NCBI GenBank assembly: GCA_035489435.1
Contig: DATHKG010000005.1
Length of the DNA stretch: 64,000 bases
DNA from: Flavitalea sp.
Lineage (GTDB): Bacteria; Bacteroidota; Bacteroidia; Chitinophagales; Chitinophagaceae
Direction: 5' to 3' (one strand)
Below the pieces are notes generated by a model. That model was not told where the DNA came from, searched no databases, and was given only the letters and a program-made list of their open reading frames with translations. Shown in pieces: positions 49,707 to 58,318 of the stretch (position 1 is its first letter; each line of letters starts with the position of its first letter). The position numbers were made by a program, and so were the translations under genes.

Positions 49707-51320
49707 ATGCTAAGTTCTGCCGAATTACTAATTGAGGTGGAGGTAGAAAACTTCTCAACCATTAAAGATGGTATGACCATCCTTGCGACAAATAATGTTG
49801 CAGCCTCTTTTATTGCGGATCAGGATTTTCCAAAATCGCATACCCTTCCAAAATTTACACCGCTGCCTTTTAACAACTTTGGCCATTTTTATCTATTCGA
49901 CCACCAAAAGTTTCTAAAAATCATCTATCAAACTATCAAAGAACTAAAGCACTGTAATAATAAAAACGGCCAGGACATTAAATGGGTTTGGGGGATCGGG
50001 ACGGTTTTGCTATTTAGCGTTATAATTGTGACTGTAGTGGGGATGGAAAATCTAATCCCAATGCATTTCGCTATTCCTGCCATCATAGGGGCTCTTGCAT
50101 ATTTTATTTCTGTGAATATTTACAATCAAAAAATCAATAAACAAATTGCTGCAAAAAAGGCAGAAGTCCTGGAAAAACTATTGTGCAATACGTTTGAGGA
50201 GAAACAAGATTTTCCGTTTCCCGACCAGCTTAAAAGCTTACTTGCGCTTAGTGGCCAGGGACAAGCAACTAAGGAAACATTCCCTGTACTCGTTGCTTTT
50301 AAAGAGGACCATCCCTTTCCTGGTTTTGGAAGATTACAACTCGAGAATAAATTTTTCTGCCCACCTAAAAACCTGGATAACGTTGTACCTAAAGAGGAGG
50401 AGTATCTAATGCAAACGGTCATTTCCAAACTACAAAATTCATTGCAGGCAGGAGGAATAGAAAACATTGGTTTTGGGAAAGTTATTGTTTTAAACCGCGA
50501 AAGCCTGGATATTGATAGTCCATGGCTTGACGCTAATAAATGCCCGCTTCTTGAGAAAGACATTTACAATTTACAATCCGTTTATGCCGTTGATGAAAAT
50601 GCCTCTGTCAGGCTCTTTTTTATGGTAGAAGTTCTGTTCCCAAAATATGATTCAGCAGCATGTTTCTTTATTCGCATGTTCAGAGCAGGGAACTCTGCCG
50701 GCTGCCAGATAGCATTAACAACTATTGGCCCTCCAAAGCTTGGTAAACCCTACATAAAAAACAGATTGATGAAGTTCAAAATGGGAGAAACTGTCGATGG
50801 ATTTACTGTCAATAATATTTTGGAATCTGATAAAAATGAACAGCTTCTAAAGGAAATCCGGGAAAAGTTCAAGGAGAAATTCCACCACGACATCACAGTT
50901 GACCAATTAGTTGGATTAGACCCACTGAACGAAAAAGGTGAAAATGAAAAAAGTGTTACCTCAAAAAAGGAAGAGATCATCAGCCATGAAACTTCCTGGC
51001 CTGGCCGATACTATTACTACCCATACAATTTACGAGAAGAACAATCCCTGACATTTGGTGGCGACTTCTTTGGTTATCCTGAATTGGTCGGCACTATTTC
51101 CGTAGCCTACGAACAAATCTCTAAGTTGGTACTTGAGTGTATTGAAAGTCATGGATATGATATTTCTAAATACAAAGACAAAGAAGGTAAATATTCAATC
51201 AATGCCGAAAAAATTGAAAAGCTAATTGTTGGAGAAGTAATTCACATGAAAGAGGATAAGAAAGAGGCAGTTGGATCAAACAATAAGACAGCGAACGATA
51301 ACAAAAAGGTTAGTGTATAA
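49707..51320 (+). CDS. membrane protein (2 TM helices near residues 93-141) with large uncharacterised C-terminal domain; upstream partner of TIR gene
   Basis: 537 aa. WVWGIGTVLLFSVIIVTVVG and MHFAIPAIIGALAYFISVNIY are hydrophobic helices. The stop lies 3 nt before the TIR gene start. Confidence 0.6.
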   Translation: MLSSAELLIEVEVENFSTIKDGMTILATNNVAASFIADQDFPKSHTLPKFTPLPFNNFGHFYLFDHQKFLKIIYQTIKELKHCNNKNGQDIKWVWGIGTVLLFSVIIVTVVGMENLIPMHFAIPAIIGALAYFISVNIYNQKINKQIAAKKAEVLEKLLCNTFEEKQDFPFPDQLKSLLALSGQGQATKETFPVLVAFKEDHPFPGFGRLQLENKFFCPPKNLDNVVPKEEEYLMQTVISKLQNSLQAGGIENIGFGKVIVLNRESLDIDSPWLDANKCPLLEKDIYNLQSVYAVDENASVRLFFMVEVLFPKYDSAACFFIRMFRAGNSAGCQIALTTIGPPKLGKPYIKNRLMKFKMGETVDGFTVNNILESDKNEQLLKEIREKFKEKFHHDITVDQLVGLDPLNEKGENEKSVTSKKEEIISHETSWPGRYYYYPYNLREEQSLTFGGDFFGYPELVGTISVAYEQISKLVLECIESHGYDISKYKDKEGKYSINAEKIEKLIVGEVIHMKEDKKEAVGSNNKTANDNKKVSV

Positions 51321-51325
51321 GAAAT

Positions 51326-51892
51326 ATGAAAGTAACAATCAATGCCAAAACTGTAGGTCAGTTAATTAACGGAGATACTGTAAACCTGTATGCTGAGAAT
51401 AAAGAAATTGTTCAAACTATCAGGAAAGTAGAGGCCGAAGCCTTAAAAATTTTCATCTCCTATAGTCACAAGGATAACGAAATCAAAGACAAGTTGATTA
51501 CCCATTTGGCACCGCTTTATCGAAGTGGAAGTATCATTGCATGGAGTGACAGCAATATTTTACCTGGTGAGGAATGGGATTTTAAAATCAGGAAGTCGCT
51601 TGATGAGTCATCAATTATTTTACTTCTGCTTAGTGCAGATTTTATTATATCCGAATACATATGGAAATCCGAAGTCTTGCCGGCAATCGAAAAATATGAA
51701 AAGAAAGAAGCAGTTGTAATACCAATTATGTGTCGAGCCTGTATGTTTGATGAAATGCCTTACGCAAAATTTCAGGGCCTTCCTAAAAATATGATCCCTA
51801 TTGCTGATCATGCAAATATTGACCAGGTATTAACAGAGATTGTGAAGTCAATAAAAATCATAACCAATCAACTAATCCTTCGACAAGCTTAG
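51326..51892 (+). CDS. TIR-domain protein
   Basis: 188 aa. KIFISYSHKDNEIKDKLITHLAPL...IIAWSDSNILPGEEWDFKIRKSLDESSIILLLLSADFIISEYIWKSEVLPAIEKYEKKEAVVIPIMCR gives full TIR strands A to D, including a conserved Glu after the SxW motif. Confidence 0.8.
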   Translation: MKVTINAKTVGQLINGDTVNLYAENKEIVQTIRKVEAEALKIFISYSHKDNEIKDKLITHLAPLYRSGSIIAWSDSNILPGEEWDFKIRKSLDESSIILLLLSADFIISEYIWKSEVLPAIEKYEKKEAVVIPIMCRACMFDEMPYAKFQGLPKNMIPIADHANIDQVLTEIVKSIKIITNQLILRQA

Positions 51893-52476: not shown

Positions 52477-53094
52477 ATGATCTCCATCGACGCATTTTCT
52501 ACGCTCCCTGATCAGATTAAAGTTTATAATCTAAAAAGTTTACGAAATAGAATCTCCGGTTCTCACACGAACCTGCTTCACAGGAATTTCAGTGCGATAC
52601 CTATTGACGACCAATTGAACGAATTGTTGGTTCAGATTGCAGATTATTTAAAAGCTCTTGAACCTGGATCCGTTTATAGTTTTTTTTCACGTTACGCTCT
52701 CAAAGTTACATCTCAATGGAGCTGGTTACTGTCTTCGGCCCACTTACATATCCCCAAAGATTCGGGGGAAGAAGAAATCGTGGTTTTTACATATGATCTT
52801 GATTCATTAGGAGACATCAAACCAAGGCTTTACAACGCACTTGAGTCTCAGATTTATTTTCAGGAAAATTTTAATAATGTTTCCAGTCTCACAAGAAAAG
52901 AAAGAGAGATTGTTGGTTTACTGGCAAGCGGTTTAAACAGCCGGGAAATCGCTCAAAAGATTTACATATCAGTTCATACCGTTAATACACATCGTAAGCG
53001 GATAATCGAAAAATTAGGTATCAAAGACCATGTCGGTTTGTTAAAGTATGCCGAGGCTTTTGGATTAAGTCATCAATCAACAACCACACCATGA
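52477..53094 (+). CDS. LuxR-family HTH transcriptional regulator
   Basis: C-terminus LTRKEREIVGLLASGLNSREIAQKIYISVHTVNTHRKRIIEKLGI. Confidence 0.75.
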   Translation: MISIDAFSTLPDQIKVYNLKSLRNRISGSHTNLLHRNFSAIPIDDQLNELLVQIADYLKALEPGSVYSFFSRYALKVTSQWSWLLSSAHLHIPKDSGEEEIVVFTYDLDSLGDIKPRLYNALESQIYFQENFNNVSSLTRKEREIVGLLASGLNSREIAQKIYISVHTVNTHRKRIIEKLGIKDHVGLLKYAEAFGLSHQSTTTP

Positions 53095-53816
53095 GCCGCT
53101 ATATAACAAGCACCGAAATTCAAAAGGCAAACCGCCAGCAGGTATATACCCTCGAAAGAAAAATTTATAATGGTGCCCTTTCTCTTGATGCAATTGGTGA
53201 TTATCTGCCCGGGAACGTGCTCGTAACGGATCTAGGGCGCATGGCAACCGTGTATATGAATAAGAATGGTTGCAACCGCTTAAAGCATAGTATAGAAGAG
53301 TTGGAAGAGAAAGGGCCTCTATATTTCCAACAATTTTTTGTACCGGCAGAAACGGAGATTATTGTGAATACTTATCTCAAAATGCAGCAGGTTCAGGATC
53401 CATCCAAAATTTTCACCTTTGCACACAGGGCTAAAGCTCTCCATGAAAAATCCTTCAAATGGTATTTCGCTTCAGCCAAACTTATGTATACTCCTGGTCA
53501 ACAGGTCTCGGACAAAATATTACTTATAGTGAACGAAGTCAATTCGACCGGACAAATAGCTAACAAGATCAACAGTGTACTGGAAGAAACGGACTGGATG
53601 AAGAAAAACTTTCGAAAGTTCTGTCTACTCACACCACGGGAGAAAATAATAATTTCAATGGTCATCAGTGGCAAAAACAGCTGTCAAATAGCTGACGAGT
53701 TACAAGTCTCCTCACTCACAATTAATACTCATCGCCGAAACATAAATGTTAAACTCGAAACCAGGAGTATTGCCGCGCTATATAAATTTTCCGTTGCATT
53801 TGGGTTGCATAAATAA
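53091..53816 (+). CDS. LuxR-family HTH transcriptional regulator (tandem paralog)
   Basis: C-terminus LTPREKIIISMVISGKNSCQIADELQVSSLTINTHRRNINVKL. 4-nt overlap with the previous gene. Confidence 0.75.
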   Translation: MSRYITSTEIQKANRQQVYTLERKIYNGALSLDAIGDYLPGNVLVTDLGRMATVYMNKNGCNRLKHSIEELEEKGPLYFQQFFVPAETEIIVNTYLKMQQVQDPSKIFTFAHRAKALHEKSFKWYFASAKLMYTPGQQVSDKILLIVNEVNSTGQIANKINSVLEETDWMKKNFRKFCLLTPREKIIISMVISGKNSCQIADELQVSSLTINTHRRNINVKLETRSIAALYKFSVAFGLHK

Positions 53817-53826
53817 ACTCCCATTA

Positions 53827-55830
53827 TCACTGAAATTGATAATCAAAATCTTCTTCTACATCGGGATCTGCATCAGTGTGTAGATGTAACCGATCTTTTC
53901 TTATCGATAAAATTGAAAAGACTACCTCTTTTCCTGTCGGAATCTCCCAAAAATCGACAGGAAATTTTACATCTATTGATTTCGTTTGGCTGTTATATCT
54001 CCAGTTAAATGAAACGGTGGCATAATCTGGCCTGGAATAATTGGTGAGCTTACAATTAAATTCATCTGTTATTTCAGTCCCCCAGTCTACCTGCCAGCGT
54101 TGAAAAATACCAGTTCCATCTGCTTTGAAGGTGATGTGTAGGCTATCCTGAATGTCCCAGTGATATGTTGTCATTTTGCAACGGGGATATTCGTTGGTGT
54201 AGTATGCGGAATCATTAAATATACCACCATCGTCGTCAGTTCCTGCGAAAGCCTTCCAGGTGCCGTGATTTATAATCATGTTCACTGTATCGTTCCCTTG
54301 TAGCTTTGCCTGAAATGTAACAATTCCAATCATAGAACCATCTCCCTTCCTTAATACTGCTTCTACGAGTTGATCTTCTTCTTCCTTATTACCTAATATC
54401 CAGTTTACTTCCGCCAGGCCCTGGGGATCGGTCATTACAAATTTTGAACTTAAAGTGCCGCCACCACTTTTAACCCTGAAATTCACATTAACACCACCCT
54501 GCGGCGAAAGCACTATGTCGTTTACTTTTACAACAAGCGGTTTTTGAAGCTGTTTATCTTTTATACCATCCTGTTCATCACCTGATACTTTTTCGATTTT
54601 GACAGGTGTAGAATAAATCAGGCGTTCTGTATCCCAGGTTTTCGAAGTCTCTACCAACTTCTTCCCGAACACACCAGCATGAGCTCCTATATTTGTCTGC
54701 AACCAGGCTGCGGCGGAAATATCCCAGACCGTACCAGTTTCGGGTTTATCACTACCCGCAACTTTCAATTCCTCCATAAGCGCCAACGAAGCATTTATAC
54801 CAACCATACCATTCAGGGTGACTGTGATAACCGGACTTATTGACATATTCAGGGTTCCGTTTGCCAGGCTCTCTTTACCTCCAGCTCTCACTGATCCCTC
54901 CAACTTCCCATCATAGATTGGCGAGATTGAACCTTTTTCGTATTTGATGCCGAAATCCACTGTACTTGCAGCTTCTGTGTGAAGCGACCTGCTAATTTTG
55001 GCGTTAGCCGAACCGTAAACATTGTATTGTAGATCGATTGTAATCGTTGTAATCAGCGGTACCGGCACAACGCCAACAAATACTACCCGGGGATATATTT
55101 TTTTATATTTTGCGAGCGAACCCTTGATTGCCGGGAGATTTACATTCTTTTCCAGTATAACTTCAAAATCGGCTGTAGCTTTTATGCCAGCATCCTCGCA
55201 GGCAGCCAGGAGATAGCTTAAACTACCGGCCGAAAACTCGTGGTCAAATTTCCAGGTGGCATCGAGATTAACCATTCCTTGATTAAGTTTGATGATCGCA
55301 CCACCTTCGTTATAAAGAATTTTTTCTTGAATGGGAAGATCAACACTATTCATTACTTTCTCATCCTGATCAATACCCTTTTCAGCATCAGGCTGTTTGG
55401 GCAACTTTTTATTATTAGGAATCAGTTCGCTTAAATCAAATTCGTACGAGAATTTCCCCTGGCTAAAAACCTCGTCAAGGGCAGCAGGTTCCGTCTTAAA
55501 CGTTACCTTGTTTCCCTGTGCAACTACGCTCCTGACTCTTCTTATATAACCTTCTCCGGTCGAGCCCACGATAATATCACCGGCTTTAATTGTTATTAAG
55601 TTTTCTGAATGCGTAAATTCATAGTCTCCTTGCTTCAGTAAATTCGTATCGTTGGATAGAATAAATTTTGTAGAATCAATAATTCTTACGTCCCGATGCA
55701 GTGCCATTGTAGTATCCGAGGTGCCTGGAACTTCATTTTCATCATTTTCGGGACCATTTTTCCGGCAATTGGACATGACGATGGTAATGGCGATCAATGC
55801 CAGTAAAGCTGCAGTTTTGGTAGAATTCAT
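53827..55830 (-). CDS. hypothetical lipoprotein (667 aa)
   Basis: Signal peptide plus lipobox (...IAITIVMSNC). Beta-rich. Confidence 0.6.
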   Translation of the reverse strand: MNSTKTAALLALIAITIVMSNCRKNGPENDENEVPGTSDTTMALHRDVRIIDSTKFILSNDTNLLKQGDYEFTHSENLITIKAGDIIVGSTGEGYIRRVRSVVAQGNKVTFKTEPAALDEVFSQGKFSYEFDLSELIPNNKKLPKQPDAEKGIDQDEKVMNSVDLPIQEKILYNEGGAIIKLNQGMVNLDATWKFDHEFSAGSLSYLLAACEDAGIKATADFEVILEKNVNLPAIKGSLAKYKKIYPRVVFVGVVPVPLITTITIDLQYNVYGSANAKISRSLHTEAASTVDFGIKYEKGSISPIYDGKLEGSVRAGGKESLANGTLNMSISPVITVTLNGMVGINASLALMEELKVAGSDKPETGTVWDISAAAWLQTNIGAHAGVFGKKLVETSKTWDTERLIYSTPVKIEKVSGDEQDGIKDKQLQKPLVVKVNDIVLSPQGGVNVNFRVKSGGGTLSSKFVMTDPQGLAEVNWILGNKEEEDQLVEAVLRKGDGSMIGIVTFQAKLQGNDTVNMIINHGTWKAFAGTDDDGGIFNDSAYYTNEYPRCKMTTYHWDIQDSLHITFKADGTGIFQRWQVDWGTEITDEFNCKLTNYSRPDYATVSFNWRYNSQTKSIDVKFPVDFWEIPTGKEVVFSILSIRKDRLHLHTDADPDVEEDFDYQFQ

Positions 55831-57054: not shown

Positions 57055-57993
57055 TTACAATCTAACTCTTTCGGTAATCAAATTTTTGTATTCAATTTTT
57101 CTTTCCTCACTTAAAAAAGAAATATCAATTAGCTCAATTGCCTTAGACAACCACTTGTCAATTCTTTTATACACGGTTTGCACCTGTTTTTCATTTAACC
57201 TCAGTGAGGTAGCAAAGCGCGTAAAATAGGCTCTATTAAAATTAAATTTTTTACCCCCAAGCAGTAATGCCATTTCTTCCTTGTCTTTCGGCAAAATCAT
57301 TTTCACATTAAGTAAATCATATGCCGGAGATAAAACCCATCCCATGGGTAATAGAAACATTGAAAAATTCTTAAGATGCATATCATTGTTGCCAATGAGA
57401 TAATTGAAAATAGTTAGTTCAAAAAAGCGCAGCTTGTCCAATAAAGTATTGGCTGAAAGTTCTCCAATCCTTTTTCCTAATTTTTCCATAGTCCCTTTGT
57501 ATTTATCTTCCAGTTCCAGGATTTGCAGAAAGTCTATCATATGGTTTTTGCTGCCATCGTTATTTCGGTCTATTCGTTTGGTAATAAAGCATAATTCACC
57601 TGAAGCCAGGCGAATCATATTCACCGGCACAATATCAATACCAAATAAGGCTGCCAGTTTCATCGACAAATGCTCGTTCTCCGGCATTTGCGGATAGATT
57701 TTTACCGGTGGTTTTAATATATAATTGCCATCTAAGGCATCCATAATGGTTAACTTGTTTTGGTGTCCATCATTCAATGCTGACTTTAGCCATCCTAAAG
57801 AAAGCTTGGGTTGGACACCCGGTACTGCAACCGAAAGTTCTATGGTTTTCTTAGCTAATTGCTCAATCTCATCCAGGGCAAATAACAATTGAGGAGCTTG
57901 CTCTGTACCAAAAAACTTCCTGGCACAGCTTGGATGATAGTCCTGCTGTCCTTGTTCCAAAGGCAAATAACAGCTTAAACATTTAGCCGGCAT
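57055..57993 (-). CDS. hipT: HipA-C-like Ser/Thr kinase toxin (HipT of a tripartite HipBST module)
   Basis: 312 aa. ...IGNNDMHLKNFSM...SPAYDLLN... is the HipA kinase core. It lacks the HipA N-domain, which is encoded separately upstream. Confidence 0.75.
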   Translation of the reverse strand: MPAKCLSCYLPLEQGQQDYHPSCARKFFGTEQAPQLLFALDEIEQLAKKTIELSVAVPGVQPKLSLGWLKSALNDGHQNKLTIMDALDGNYILKPPVKIYPQMPENEHLSMKLAALFGIDIVPVNMIRLASGELCFITKRIDRNNDGSKNHMIDFLQILELEDKYKGTMEKLGKRIGELSANTLLDKLRFFELTIFNYLIGNNDMHLKNFSMFLLPMGWVLSPAYDLLNVKMILPKDKEEMALLLGGKKFNFNRAYFTRFATSLRLNEKQVQTVYKRIDKWLSKAIELIDISFLSEERKIEYKNLITERVRL

Positions 57994-58318
57994 CTTCGTT
58001 CTTAATTTGATGAATACTTACTGCACCGATGCAACTTTTGCCCACCGCCAGCAACAATCCCATTCTGTCGTTTCGGTTGATACGCCAGCTTTCTATTGTG
58101 ATGTTCAGCAGCCAGCCTTCGGGAATCAAACCATCAAAAAAAGGAAATAACCGCTTGCTTCGATATAGTTGATTATTTACCGGTAGTTGAAAGCTTACGA
58201 ACTGCTGTGGAAAGTTTTTTATATAATCGTCAGAATAAGAGAATGTATATTCCCCATCATCTGTTTCCTGTAACATTCCGGCCTTAATATCTTTATATTT
58301 AACTATTGCCTGTCTCAT
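57983..58318 (-). CDS. hipS: HipA N-terminal-domain-like protein (HipS)
   Basis: 111 aa. ...FPFFDGLIPEGW...SCIGAVSIH resembles the HipA_N subdomain. Overlaps the kinase gene by 11 nt. Confidence 0.65.
   Translation of the reverse strand: MRQAIVKYKDIKAGMLQETDDGEYTFSYSDDYIKNFPQQFVSFQLPVNNQLYRSKRLFPFFDGLIPEGWLLNITIESWRINRNDRMGLLLAVGKSCIGAVSIHQIKNEDAG

What the first reader, a model, noticed from the sequence alone, without database searches (positions are those of the whole stretch)
49707..51892. Translationally coupled membrane protein + TIR-domain gene pair: candidate undescribed anti-phage system
A 188-aa protein with a complete TIR fold signature (FISYSHKD...SEYIWKSEV) directly follows (3-nt gap) a 537-aa protein with two TM helices and a 390-aa unassigned cytoplasmic domain. 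TIR signal generator plus membrane effector is the logic of Thoeris-type and related NAD-derived-signal immune systems. The partner here has no Macro/SIR2/SLOG motif I can see. The pair lies in an accessory patch (TA module, LuxR pair, ATPase remnant) between two PULs.
Basis: partly seen in the sequence, partly recalled or inferred. Interest (0 to 1): 0.75.

Follow-up and report, generated by a model that had tools for sequence, protein, structure and literature searches.

The report
Membrane protein–TIR pair sharing docking motif
A rare, unannotated two-pass membrane protein and the small TIR protein encoded right after it carry the same ~20-residue peptide motif at their facing ends, and in other bacteria the TIR is replaced by other immune-type modules while the motif stays, so this looks like a new motif-coupled (possibly amyloid-like) candidate defence module, not a Thoeris-type small-molecule signalling system.

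Summary
The two ORFs are real: A is 49707-51320 (537 aa, 2 TM helices, no family hit) and B is 51326-51892 (188 aa, TIR). The gap is 5 nt, not 3. A belongs to a rare, isolated family with 157 cluster representatives among 1.84 billion. In 16 intact loci from several phyla, A is always followed by a small gene. That gene's C-terminal module varies: TIR in 9, EAD11 adaptor in 3, trypsin-like peptidase in 1, short helical protein in 3. Its first ~22 residues are constant (MKVxINAxxIGQVINxExxNI) and match the conserved C-terminal tail of A (YSINAEKIxQLVVGExVxI). An HMM built only from B heads finds the A tail in 75 of 79 A proteins. It scored at least 10 bits on 35 of 84 real A proteins and on 0 of 1680 shuffled ones. 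Cognate pairs co-vary (p = 0.004). A has no Macro, SIR2, SLOG or SAVED-like domain. The closest TIR relatives are EAD11-tethered effectors of NLR-like or lectin-type systems. The best reading is that A is a constant membrane-anchored core that recruits and activates swappable effectors through a shared beta-type motif. This resembles bacterial amyloid-signalling (BASS) and EAD coupling. Thoeris-style nucleotide signalling is not supported. Defence function and amyloid behaviour are inferred, not shown.

The parts
49707..51320 (+). Gene A: 537-aa membrane protein. It is the constant core of the module and founds an unannotated family.
   Evidence: ORF. No hit in Pfam, NCBIfam, PADLOC or PHROGs. 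The family has 14 close members and 157 representatives at 50% clustering, all with the same architecture. AF2 model pTM 0.73.
49707..49973 (+). A, N-terminal cytoplasmic helical region (aa 1-89) with the invariant LPxFxPLPFNNFGH loop.
   Evidence: Alignment A1 invariant columns P42, F55, G59. Helices 4-37 and 66-85.
49980..50129 (+). A, transmembrane hairpin (aa ~92-141). The sequence is poorly conserved, the loop is short, and both flanks are K-rich, so the topology is N-in/C-in.
   Evidence: Kyte-Doolittle windows and flank charges of +2/-1/+2. Helices 90-111 and 118-159.
50184..51176 (+). A, conserved cytoplasmic alpha/beta plus helical domain (aa ~160-490). Motifs: PFPGFG, FxCxPK, DSPWLD, FPKYDSAACFF, TTIGPP, WPGRYY, GGDFFG.
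51192..51248 (+). A, C-terminal coupling motif (aa 496-514, YSINAEKIEKLIVGEVIHM).
   Evidence: Combined motif HMM 48.3 bits, E 1.3e-14. The B-head HMM hits this region in 75 of 79 A proteins. Low pLDDT in the monomer model.
51249..51317 (+). A, K/E/N-rich low-complexity tail after the motif (aa 515-537).
   Evidence: pLDDT below 50 for residues 503-537. Tails of 3-39 aa across the family.
51321..51325 (+). 5-nt intergenic spacer (gaaat) between the stop of A and the ATG of B.
51326..51892 (+). Gene B: 188-aa protein made of motif, linker and TIR domain.
51326..51388 (+). B, N-terminal coupling motif (aa 1-21, MKVTINAKTVGQLINGDTVNL), homologous to the A tail motif.
   Evidence: Combined motif HMM 35.3 bits, E 3.2e-10. 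Conserved in all 16 B proteins whatever their C-terminal domain. Low pLDDT in the monomer.
51389..51442 (+). B, variable linker (aa 22-39).
51443..51889 (+). B, TIR domain (aa 40-188). The putative catalytic Glu is E116 (nt 51671-51673).
   Evidence: Pfam TIR_2 3.9e-13. pLDDT above 95. Foldseek top hits are all TIR domains. E116 is at least 90% conserved, and S109 is invariant.

Best explanation
This is a two-gene conflict (probably anti-phage, abortive-infection) module in which the partners are coupled physically through a shared short peptide motif, not through a diffusible nucleotide.

Protein A is the constant core. It is anchored in the inner membrane by a TM hairpin, and both its conserved N-terminal region and its ~330-aa alpha/beta plus helical domain lie in the cytoplasm. 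It ends in a ~20-residue beta-prone motif (YSINAEKIxQLVVGExVxI) followed by a disordered charged tail.

Protein B starts with the same motif (MKVxINAxxIGQVINxExxNI). After a flexible linker it carries a swappable output module: a TIR domain here, and elsewhere an EAD11 adaptor, a trypsin-like peptidase, or a small helical protein with an amphipathic Gly/Ala-rich end.

Proposed mechanism:
1. A stimulus sensed by A at the membrane changes A's conformation or oligomeric state and exposes or clusters its C-terminal motifs.
2. These motifs pair or stack with the matching motif of B, either by beta-augmentation or by amyloid-like templating as in BASS/HET-s systems.
3. B molecules are thereby concentrated.
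4. Because TIR NADase activity requires self-association, clustering switches on NAD+ cleavage through E116, and the infected cell arrests or dies.

Shown: the conserved gene pair, the shared and co-varying motif, module swapping in B, an intact TIR fold with a conserved Glu, and the absence of known signal-receptor domains in A.

Inferred: physical binding of the motifs, the beta or amyloid nature of that binding, A acting as sensor and B as effector, NADase output, and the defence role.
For: - Pair conservation: 16 intact loci across Bacteroidota, SAR324, Acidobacteriota and metagenomes, with B starting -4 to +49 nt after A in 15 of 16. Flanking genes are not conserved.
- Motif homology: an HMM built from 12 B heads places its best hit in the last 3-41 residues of 75 of 79 A proteins. 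It scores at least 10 bits on 35 of 84 real A proteins and on 0 of 1680 shuffled ones, where the maximum was 3.2 bits.
- Motif specificity: among 1312 ORFs from all loci and the whole window, only A tails and B heads hit the motif HMM.
- Co-variation: cognate pairs score higher than non-cognate pairs, BLOSUM 31.5 versus 25.8, permutation p = 0.004.
- Protein-level selection: the two copies are 37% identical in amino acids, and only 29 of 71 identical residues share a codon.
- Disorder: both motif regions have low pLDDT in monomer models.
- B modules: TIR, EAD11, Trypsin_2 or short helical.
- Module swapping among close relatives: A's closest homologue (49% identity) is paired with EAD11.
- TIR clade behaviour: relatives at 38-49% identity are EAD11-TIR or TIR-EAD11 effectors encoded next to an NB-ARC/WD40 STAND protein or an EAD11-lectin protein.
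- TIR structure: it resembles assembly-activated TIRs such as plant NLR TIRs, Cat1, SARM1, SPARTA and AbTir.
- Literature:
  - The gene-pair geometry matches BASS pairs (10.1101/2020.01.06.895854).
  - Amyloid-motif antiphage signalling has been demonstrated for Bab/Agp (10.1101/2024.11.07.622273).
  - The EAD-coupling principle is described in PMC7159879.
Against: - There is no experimental evidence of any kind: no binding, fibril, NADase or phage-protection data.
- Motif composition is only partly amyloid-like. I, V, N and G are enriched and P is nearly absent, but K and E are also common (about 8% each), and Chou-Fasman beta and alpha propensities are about equal.
- AF2 places weak helices in both motif regions.
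- In known amyloid-signalling pairs, the protein with the C-terminal motif is the executioner and the one with the N-terminal motif is the sensor. That is the opposite polarity to the one proposed here.
- A has no recognisable sensor domain or NTPase.
- The window context is an accessory patch, not a dense defence island.
- The co-variation test does not fully control for shared lineage.
Confidence: 0.5

Rival explanations
1. Reversed polarity, the classical amyloid-signalling layout. B, or an upstream sensor reached through EAD11, detects infection. Its N-terminal motif then templates the C-terminal motif of A, and A is the membrane-disrupting executioner, analogous to HET-S, Bell or Bab.
For: - In all described BASS and fungal pairs, the motif sits at the C-terminus of the executioner and the N-terminus of the sensor. 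The executioner gene comes first and the genes are collinear and no more than about 10 bp apart. Here A comes first, carries the motif at its C-terminus and is membrane-embedded.
- Thoeris ThsB TIR proteins are themselves infection sensors (10.64898/2025.12.03.692087), and B hits a PADLOC ThsB model at 3.5e-35.
- EAD11-type B proteins could relay from other EAD11 proteins, such as the one in L001.
Against: - B's variable modules (TIR, trypsin-like peptidase, EAD adaptor, small amphipathic helical protein) are the typical effector repertoire, not sensors (PMC7159879).
- The nearest TIR relatives are tethered effectors.
- A is large and highly conserved, with a ~330-aa globular domain. This is unlike the small pore-forming Bell or Bab domains, and A is already membrane-inserted.
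- L009 has an EAD11-type B but no second EAD11 protein within 13.5 kb.
Confidence: 0.2
2. Thoeris-type signalling. B's TIR senses infection and makes a cADPR-like or other NAD-derived messenger. A's cytoplasmic domain binds it, and A then damages the membrane. The shared motif only keeps the two proteins close together.
For: - TIR plus TM-protein operons are a recurrent Thoeris layout. Twenty-nine putative effector classes, including several TM proteins and DUFs, have been proposed (10.64898/2025.12.03.692087).
- B matches a PADLOC ThsB HMM and keeps the catalytic Glu.
- A's helix-grip/SRPBCC-like subdomain could in principle bind a small ligand.
Against: - 7 of 16 pairs have a B without a TIR domain (EAD11, trypsin-like, helical), while A keeps all of its invariant motifs.
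- A has no Macro, SLOG, SIR2, SAVED or CARF domain.
- Solved ThsB structures are not among the top 50 structural neighbours of B.
- The only feature conserved between the partners is the peptide motif.
Confidence: 0.1
3. Not an immune module. A is a membrane scaffold or housekeeping-type protein that uses a beta-strand docking peptide to anchor assorted accessory proteins at the membrane, for example for signalling or envelope functions.
For: - A has no defence-database hit.
- The window context is sugar-utilisation genes and regulators, not a classic defence island.
- No homologues were found in phage, plasmid or viral collections.
Against: - The distribution is extremely sparse and patchy: 157 clusters among 1.84 billion, scattered across phyla.
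- A is often disrupted by frameshifts or truncation (L005, L012, L013, L017, L020, L026).
- The window shows a low-GC insertion signature.
- Neighbours in other loci include AbiEii, ArdC, a recombinase, a Schlafen/AlbA_2-domain (SLFN_AlbA_2) protein, patatin and RHS.
- The B modules are all hallmark conflict-system domains.
Confidence: 0.07
4. The shared motif is a DNA-level recombination scar that allows downstream cassettes to be swapped onto A, as with polymorphic-toxin orphan modules. It is not a protein interaction element.
For: - The variable B modules sit behind a constant short sequence, which resembles cassette exchange.
- In L012, an in-frame TINVNAKS follows the A tail motif, a possible fusion remnant.
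Against: - Nucleotide identity between the two copies is only 53%, and codons differ for 42 of 71 identical residues.
- None of 62 scored A proteins has a B-type domain fused after the motif. Their tails are 3-39 aa.
- B has its own start codon exactly at the motif in all loci.
Confidence: 0.03

Closest known systems
Bacterial amyloid signalling sequence (BASS) gene pairs: Bell/NLR (BASS1-10; Dyrka et al. 2020) and Bab/Agp (BASS11; Ibarlosa et al. 2024)
   Same: - A ~20-25-aa motif is shared between the C-terminus of the upstream gene product and the N-terminus of the downstream one.
- The genes are collinear and nearly abutting.
- The motif is flanked by disordered segments.
- One partner is membrane-associated.
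- BASS motifs have also been reported on TIR, CHAT and EAD7 proteins.
- An abortive-infection role has been shown for Bab/Agp.
   Different: - There is no NLR/STAND or TPR-GreAB-PIN sensor.
- There is no Bell, HeLo or Bab helical executioner. The C-terminal-motif partner is instead a new 540-aa, constitutively 2-TM protein with a large conserved globular domain.
- The N-terminal-motif partner is a small effector or adaptor.
- The hosts are mostly unicellular Bacteroidota rather than filamentous Actinobacteria and Cyanobacteria.
- Amyloid behaviour is untested.
- Identity with any named BASS family could not be tested because the sequences are not in the texts held.
EAD-coupled conflict systems (Kaur, Burroughs, Iyer, Aravind 2020, PMC7159879), including the membrane-associated EACC1 two-gene system
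   Same: - A constant core component is combined with variable effectors from the adjacent gene, joined by a copy of the same small element on each.
- Adjacent copies co-evolve.
- The effector repertoire is the same (TIR, trypsin-like peptidase, further EADs).
- EAD11 itself appears as a B module.
- EACC1 is likewise a constant membrane component proposed to be a sensor.
   Different: - The coupling element is a ~20-aa beta-prone peptide, not a folded helical or alpha+beta EAD.
- A contains no NTPase (vWA-MoxR, STAND or GTPase).
- A is unrelated to EACC1, which has a single TM helix and short extensions.
Thoeris systems (types I-XI and the further putative types; Yirmiya et al. 2025)
   Same: - Two-gene operon with a small TIR protein that hits a ThsB HMM.
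- The partner has TM helices and a domain of unknown function.
- The expected outcome is abortive infection.
   Different: - The partner association is not TIR-specific.
- There is no recognisable signal-binding domain.
- The partners share a terminal peptide motif, which is not a Thoeris feature.
- The TIR clade is otherwise found as adaptor-tethered effectors.
Assembly-activated TIR NADase effectors (TIR-SAVED/CBASS, SPARTA TIR-APAZ, Cat1, SARM1, AbTir)
   Same: - Canonical TIR fold with a conserved catalytic Glu.
- The proposed activation by induced oligomerisation leads to NAD+ depletion.
   Different: Here oligomerisation would be driven by a short N-terminal motif templated by a membrane protein, not by a fused SAVED, APAZ, CARF or ARM-SAM domain.

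Membership tests
Thoeris | A TIR-domain protein (ThsB) encoded in the operon | tested here: met
   PADLOC ThsB PDLC00420 3.5e-35 and Pfam TIR_2 3.9e-13. TIR fold pLDDT above 95. However, Pfam ThsB_TIR scores only E 0.099, below its cutoff, and no ThsB structure is among the top 50 Foldseek hits.
Thoeris | A partner effector with a domain that binds the TIR-made signal (SLOG, Macro and similar), or membership in a described ThsA/C-L class | tested here: not met
Thoeris | The effector family is specifically associated with TIR genes | tested here: not met
   7 of 16 A-family pairs have a B without a TIR domain: EAD11, Trypsin_2 or short helical.
Thoeris | Phage-triggered production of an ADPR-derived messenger that activates the effector, and phage protection | not testable with these tools
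   Requires LC-MS, lysate-transfer and plaque assays.
BASS / amyloid signalling motif gene pairs | A short (~20-25 aa) motif shared by the C-terminus of one protein and the N-terminus of the protein from the adjacent collinear gene | tested here: met
   Gaps of -4 to +49 nt in 15 of 16 pairs. Geometry as described.
BASS / amyloid signalling motif gene pairs | Amyloid-type composition and beta propensity: N, Q, G, V and I enriched, and P, L and K depleted | tested here: inconclusive
   I 21.5%, V 11.4%, N 10.3%, G 6.4% and P 0.2%, but K 8.3% and E 8.6%. Chou-Fasman beta about 1.1 versus alpha about 1.0-1.1. ArchCandy and AmyloComp are not available.
BASS / amyloid signalling motif gene pairs | The N-terminal-motif partner is an NLR/STAND (NB-ARC or NACHT) or Agp-type sensor | tested here: not met
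   B proteins are 109-301 aa and carry TIR, EAD11, trypsin-like or helical modules.
BASS / amyloid signalling motif gene pairs | The C-terminal-motif partner has a Bell, Bab or HeLo-type helical executioner domain | tested here: not met
   A is a 2-TM protein with an alpha/beta domain and no such hit.
BASS / amyloid signalling motif gene pairs | The motif forms fibrils or prion-like foci and templates its partner | not testable with these tools
   Needs peptides with ThT and EM, GFP-foci assays, or multimer structure prediction.
BASS / amyloid signalling motif gene pairs | Sequence identity of the motif with a named family (BASS1-11) | not tested
   Motif sequences and logos are only in figures that are not held. 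The few BASS11 residues quoted (I87-G88-S89-V90, Q92, D99-N100, Agp N12) do not obviously register with the motif here.
EAD-coupled NTP-dependent conflict systems | The same small element sits on a constant core and on variable effector proteins of the adjacent gene, and adjacent copies co-evolve | tested here: met
   The principle is described.
EAD-coupled NTP-dependent conflict systems | The core contains an NTPase (vWA-MoxR, STAND or GTPase) | tested here: not met
TIR domain superfamily (catalytic type) | A flavodoxin-like TIR fold with a conserved catalytic Glu in the alphaC region | tested here: met
   pLDDT above 95. Foldseek top hits are all TIR domains. S103 and E116 are at least 90% conserved and S109 is invariant. 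Assignment of E116 as the catalytic residue comes from motif position, not from structural superposition.

The most novel reading that the evidence does not exclude
A previously undescribed family of inner-membrane proteins acts as an immune sensor. It signals by prion-like or amyloid templating from its C-terminal motif to motif-tagged effectors: a TIR NADase, a trypsin-like protease, EAD11 adaptors and small membrane-active helical proteins. This would be an amyloid-type signalosome nucleated at the membrane without any NLR/STAND receptor, in mostly unicellular Bacteroidota. It would also show that short beta-motifs and helical EADs are interchangeable plug-and-socket connectors in bacterial immunity.
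Probability: 0.3. Interest if true: 0.8.

Novelty: new variant of a known kind. Interest (0 to 1): 0.62.

Why it matters
If correct, this adds a new core component and a new wiring mode to bacterial TIR immunity. The TIR would be recruited and switched on by a short self-matching peptide presented by a membrane protein, and not by a nucleotide messenger or a fused sensor domain.

It would extend motif-templated (amyloid-like) immune signalling in two ways: beyond NLR/Bell pairs and beyond filamentous bacteria. It would also link that mechanism to the EAD adaptor network, because EAD11 and the motif occur on the same protein.

The system is small, with two genes and a 20-aa motif that has clear mutational targets, so the hypothesis is directly testable.

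There is also a caution for annotation. PADLOC-type ThsB hits next to TM proteins should not automatically be read as Thoeris.

Tried and rejected
- afdb50 fold library: unavailable.
- Sequence search of B against the PDB: no hit at E <= 0.01.
- Census of motif-bearing proteins with the search for homologous proteins:
  - A 40-aa alignment gave 43 candidates and no hit at E <= 10.
- Comparison with BASS1-11: the sequences are not present in the texts or supplements held.
- Checking whether A is among the 29 putative Thoeris effectors: the stored Table S1 is truncated after 'DUF2270', and neither this TIR's sequence strings nor the relevant taxa occur in the part held.
- A third motif-bearing or conserved flanking component: none found.
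- A second EAD11 protein: found only in L001, not in L009.
- DNA-level duplication or cassette-scar explanation: rejected on codon usage and on the absence of fusion proteins.
- Mobile-element signatures: no tRNA, no meaningful flanking repeats, and no homologues in viral contigs, plasmids or phages.
- Promoter and terminator scans: not above the shuffled background.
Full report
**Observation**

The window contains two co-directional ORFs. A is 49707-51320 (537 aa) and B is 51326-51892 (188 aa). They are separated by 5 nt (TAA gaaat ATG), not 3.

B is a TIR protein:
- Pfam TIR_2 scores 3.9e-13 and TIR 4.5e-5, and PADLOC ThsB model PDLC00420 scores 3.5e-35.
- In an AF2 model, residues 40-188 have pLDDT above 95.
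- All top Foldseek hits in the PDB are TIR domains: plant NLR TIRs, Cat1, SARM1, SPARTA, MAL/MyD88 and AbTir. No ThsB structure is among the first 50.
- S109 is invariant, and S103 and E116 are at least 90% conserved among 25 relatives. This fits a catalytically competent TIR. Assigning E116 as the catalytic Glu is an inference from motif position.

A has no hit in Pfam (only a sub-threshold DUF5868 hit at E 0.01), NCBIfam, PADLOC or PHROGs.
- It has a hydrophobic hairpin at about aa 92-141 with K-rich flanks, so both large regions are cytoplasmic.
- The AF2 model (pTM 0.73) shows N-terminal helices, the TM hairpin, an alpha/beta domain (aa 190-340), a helical region (aa 347-481) and a disordered tail (aa 503-537).
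- There is no Macro, SIR2, SLOG, SAVED or CARF domain.

The pair lies in a low-GC patch (0.35-0.39 against about 0.45). On one side is a rhamnosidase gene. On the other are two LuxR/GerE regulators, then a PLP enzyme, a split HipA toxin and a hybrid sensor kinase. The window is from a Flavitalea sp. contig.

**The family and its partner**

A is rare. There are 14 proteins at E <= 1e-3 in the word-indexed 5.8-billion collection. An exhaustive profile search of 1.84 billion representatives gives 157 hits, all full-length proteins of about 500-650 aa or fragments of the same architecture. No other family shares a domain with it. The alignment shows many invariant motifs: LPFNNFGH, PFPGFG, FxCxPK, DSPWLD, FPKYDSAACFF, TTIGPP, WPGRYY and GGDFFG.

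I collected loci by exact-protein look-ups and collection scans. In 16 loci with an intact A, a small gene follows on the same strand. The gap is -4 to +49 nt in 15 of them.

The C-terminal module of the downstream protein varies:

| Module | Loci |
|---|---|
| TIR (9) | window, L002, L004, L016, L018, L024, L025, L028; L008 weakly |
| EAD11 (3) | L001, L009, L026 |
| Trypsin_2 (1) | L017 |
| Short helical protein, 109-125 aa, with an amphipathic Gly/Ala-rich end (3) | L007, L010, L011 |

The closest homologue of the window's A (49% identity, L001) is paired with EAD11, not TIR. Flanking genes are not conserved. In some loci they include AbiEii/DUF6922, ArdC, PRTase-CE, a serine recombinase, patatin, RHS and a Schlafen/AlbA_2-domain (SLFN_AlbA_2) protein.

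Several A copies are frameshifted or truncated (L005, L012, L013, L017, L020, L026). No homologue was found in viral contigs, plasmids or phages.

**The key finding: a shared terminal motif**

Whatever its C-terminal module, every B protein begins with the same ~22 residues, with consensus MKVxINAxxIGQVINxExxNI. Every A ends with YSINAEKI[ED]QL[IV]VGExVxI followed by a 3-39-aa charged tail. In register, the two window motifs read:

    A  KEGKYSINAEKIEKLIVGEVIHMKEDKKE
    B  --MKVTINAKTVGQLINGDTVNLYAENKE

.

The evidence that these are the same motif:
- An HMM built only from 12 B heads places its best hit within the last 3-41 residues in 75 of 79 full-length A proteins.
- That HMM scores at least 10 bits on 35 of 84 real A proteins and on 0 of 1680 shuffled ones, where the maximum was 3.2 bits.
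- A combined motif HMM run over 1312 ORFs, from all loci and the whole 64-kb window, hits only A tails (E 1e-14 to 1e-6) and B heads (E 3e-10 to 7e-3).
- Cognate A/B motifs are more alike than non-cognate ones (mean BLOSUM 31.5 versus 25.8, permutation p = 0.004). For example, GEVIN pairs with G[DE]xIN, and GEKxT pairs with KKxT.
- The similarity is kept at the protein level: 37% amino-acid identity, 53% nucleotide identity, and the same codon for only 29 of 71 identical residues.
- No A protein has a B-type domain fused after the motif.
- Both motif regions are low-confidence in monomer models.
- The composition is rich in I, V, N and G and almost free of P, but it also contains K and E.

**What the TIR clade does elsewhere**

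The nearest relatives of B's TIR domain (38-49% identity) include EAD11-TIR and TIR-EAD11 fusions.
- P0160 is encoded with a 4-nt overlap after an NB-ARC/WD40 STAND protein (L022).
- P0183 precedes an EAD11 plus Fib_succ_major (lectin-type) protein (L021).

None of these relatives carries the motif. In this clade the TIR is therefore typically an adaptor-tethered output module. The same adaptor, EAD11, is what replaces the TIR in some B proteins.

**Interpretation**

The conserved link between A and B is a matching peptide, and the TIR is dispensable for the pairing. This argues against A being a receptor for a TIR-made nucleotide, which is the Thoeris logic.

It argues for direct coupling, as in two described principles:
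- In bacterial amyloid signalling (BASS) pairs, a ~25-aa motif is shared by the C-terminus of one protein and the N-terminus of the adjacent collinear gene's product, usually 10 bp or less apart (10.1101/2020.01.06.895854). Bab/Agp has been shown to confer abortive-infection defence, and BASS11 is also seen on TIR, CHAT and EAD7 proteins (10.1101/2024.11.07.622273).
- In the EAD-coupling principle, a constant core and the variable effectors from the adjacent gene each carry a copy of the same small element, and adjacent copies co-evolve (PMC7159879).

I propose that A is the constant, membrane-anchored core and probably the sensor. Its C-terminal motif would recruit and cluster motif-tagged B proteins. 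For the TIR version, clustering would switch on NADase activity. That TIR NADases need self-association is established knowledge for SARM1, plant TIRs, AbTir, TIR-SAVED and SPARTA. The structural neighbours found are of this kind.

Whether the assembly is amyloid-like or a simple beta-augmentation cannot be decided here. The main rival keeps the motif coupling but reverses the polarity: A would be the executioner, as HET-S, Bell and Bab are, since they too carry the motif at the C-terminus and act on membranes.

**Comparison with known systems, and novelty**

The module fails the Thoeris membership tests that could be run. It has no signal-binding effector domain, and its partner association is not TIR-specific.

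It meets the defining geometry of BASS pairs. It has neither an NLR/Agp-type sensor nor a Bell/Bab-type executioner. Its motif could not be compared with BASS1-11, because those sequences appear only in figures.

It follows the EAD principle but lacks an NTPase core, and it uses a peptide in place of a folded EAD.

I could not establish whether family A is among the 29 putative Thoeris effector classes of Yirmiya et al. The stored Table S1 is truncated, and no '2TM' label or matching TIR string occurs in the part held.

I rate the finding a new variant of a known kind. The core protein family is new and unannotated, and the architecture is new (a membrane protein with a C-terminal motif, paired with motif-TIR, motif-EAD11, motif-trypsin or motif-helical proteins). 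The signalling principle, a paired terminal motif, is already described.

**Limits**

Everything beyond sequence and predicted structure is inference.
- The co-variation test does not fully remove lineage effects.
- The census covers 16 of about 157 family clusters.
- The window context is only weakly defence-like.

Noticed in passing
L005:1862-3824; L012:5983-7772; L013:5845-6195; L017:2159-3815; L020:1124-1852; L026:4762-6319: Many copies of gene A are frameshifted, split or truncated. In L005 the upstream 168-aa ORF carries HEAT repeats and then, in another frame, the conserved N-terminal region of A. In L012 the A tail motif is followed in frame by TINVNAKS, which resembles a B head. Frequent decay is typical of costly or toxic defence genes.
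   Followed up: partly
L024:1-4809 (-) and L027:1-3319 (-): Divergently upstream of two related A genes lies a conserved cluster of unannotated genes of about 473-490, 153 and 471-504 aa, plus a 1160-aa gene in L024. One product has a faint Tubulin_2 hit. This may be a separate neighbouring system, or the synteny may simply reflect close relatedness.
   Followed up: no
window 57055-58318 (-): A HipA-type kinase toxin is split into two ORFs: the HipA N-terminal 'Couple_hipA' domain (111 aa) and HipA_C (312 aa).
   Followed up: partly
window 52477-53816 (+): Two adjacent, overlapping LuxR/GerE-type regulators (205 and 241 aa) with unassigned N-terminal domains lie directly downstream of the A-B pair, within the same low-GC patch. 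Whether they regulate the pair is unknown, and they are not conserved in other loci.
   Followed up: no
L022:560-5073: An NB-ARC/WD40 STAND protein (1259 aa) is followed, with a 4-nt overlap, by an EAD11-TIR protein (P0160). This is the closest relative of the window's TIR domain (49% identity). My crude EAD11 HMM found no EAD11 on the STAND protein.
   Followed up: partly
L021:6001-9144: A TIR-EAD11 protein (P0183) is followed by a 769-aa EAD11 plus Fib_succ_major (lectin-fold) protein. This is an example of the EAD-coupled lectin conflict systems described by the Aravind group.
   Followed up: no
L007:1823-2152; L010:2812-3174; L011:7578-7955: The short B proteins consist of the motif, a helical region, and a C-terminal amphipathic Gly/Ala-rich helix (for example SAGSWALGIAKEIGVPIAAEAIKNAL). 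They could be small membrane-active effectors or another adaptor. L010 and L011 are weakly related (E 0.007), and L010 has a sub-threshold Pepco hit.
   Followed up: partly
L001:1201-5903 and 8045-9236: In the EAD11-type locus L001, the pair is flanked by an EAD11 plus CarboxypepD_reg-like protein, a 373-aa protein, an 878-aa TPR protein, and a patatin-like phospholipase. These may be further components recruited through EAD11.
   Followed up: partly
window 53827-55830 (-): A 667-aa predicted lipoprotein-like protein, with an N-terminal hydrophobic segment followed by a Cys. It has only a weak Big_1 hit and is otherwise unassigned.
   Followed up: no
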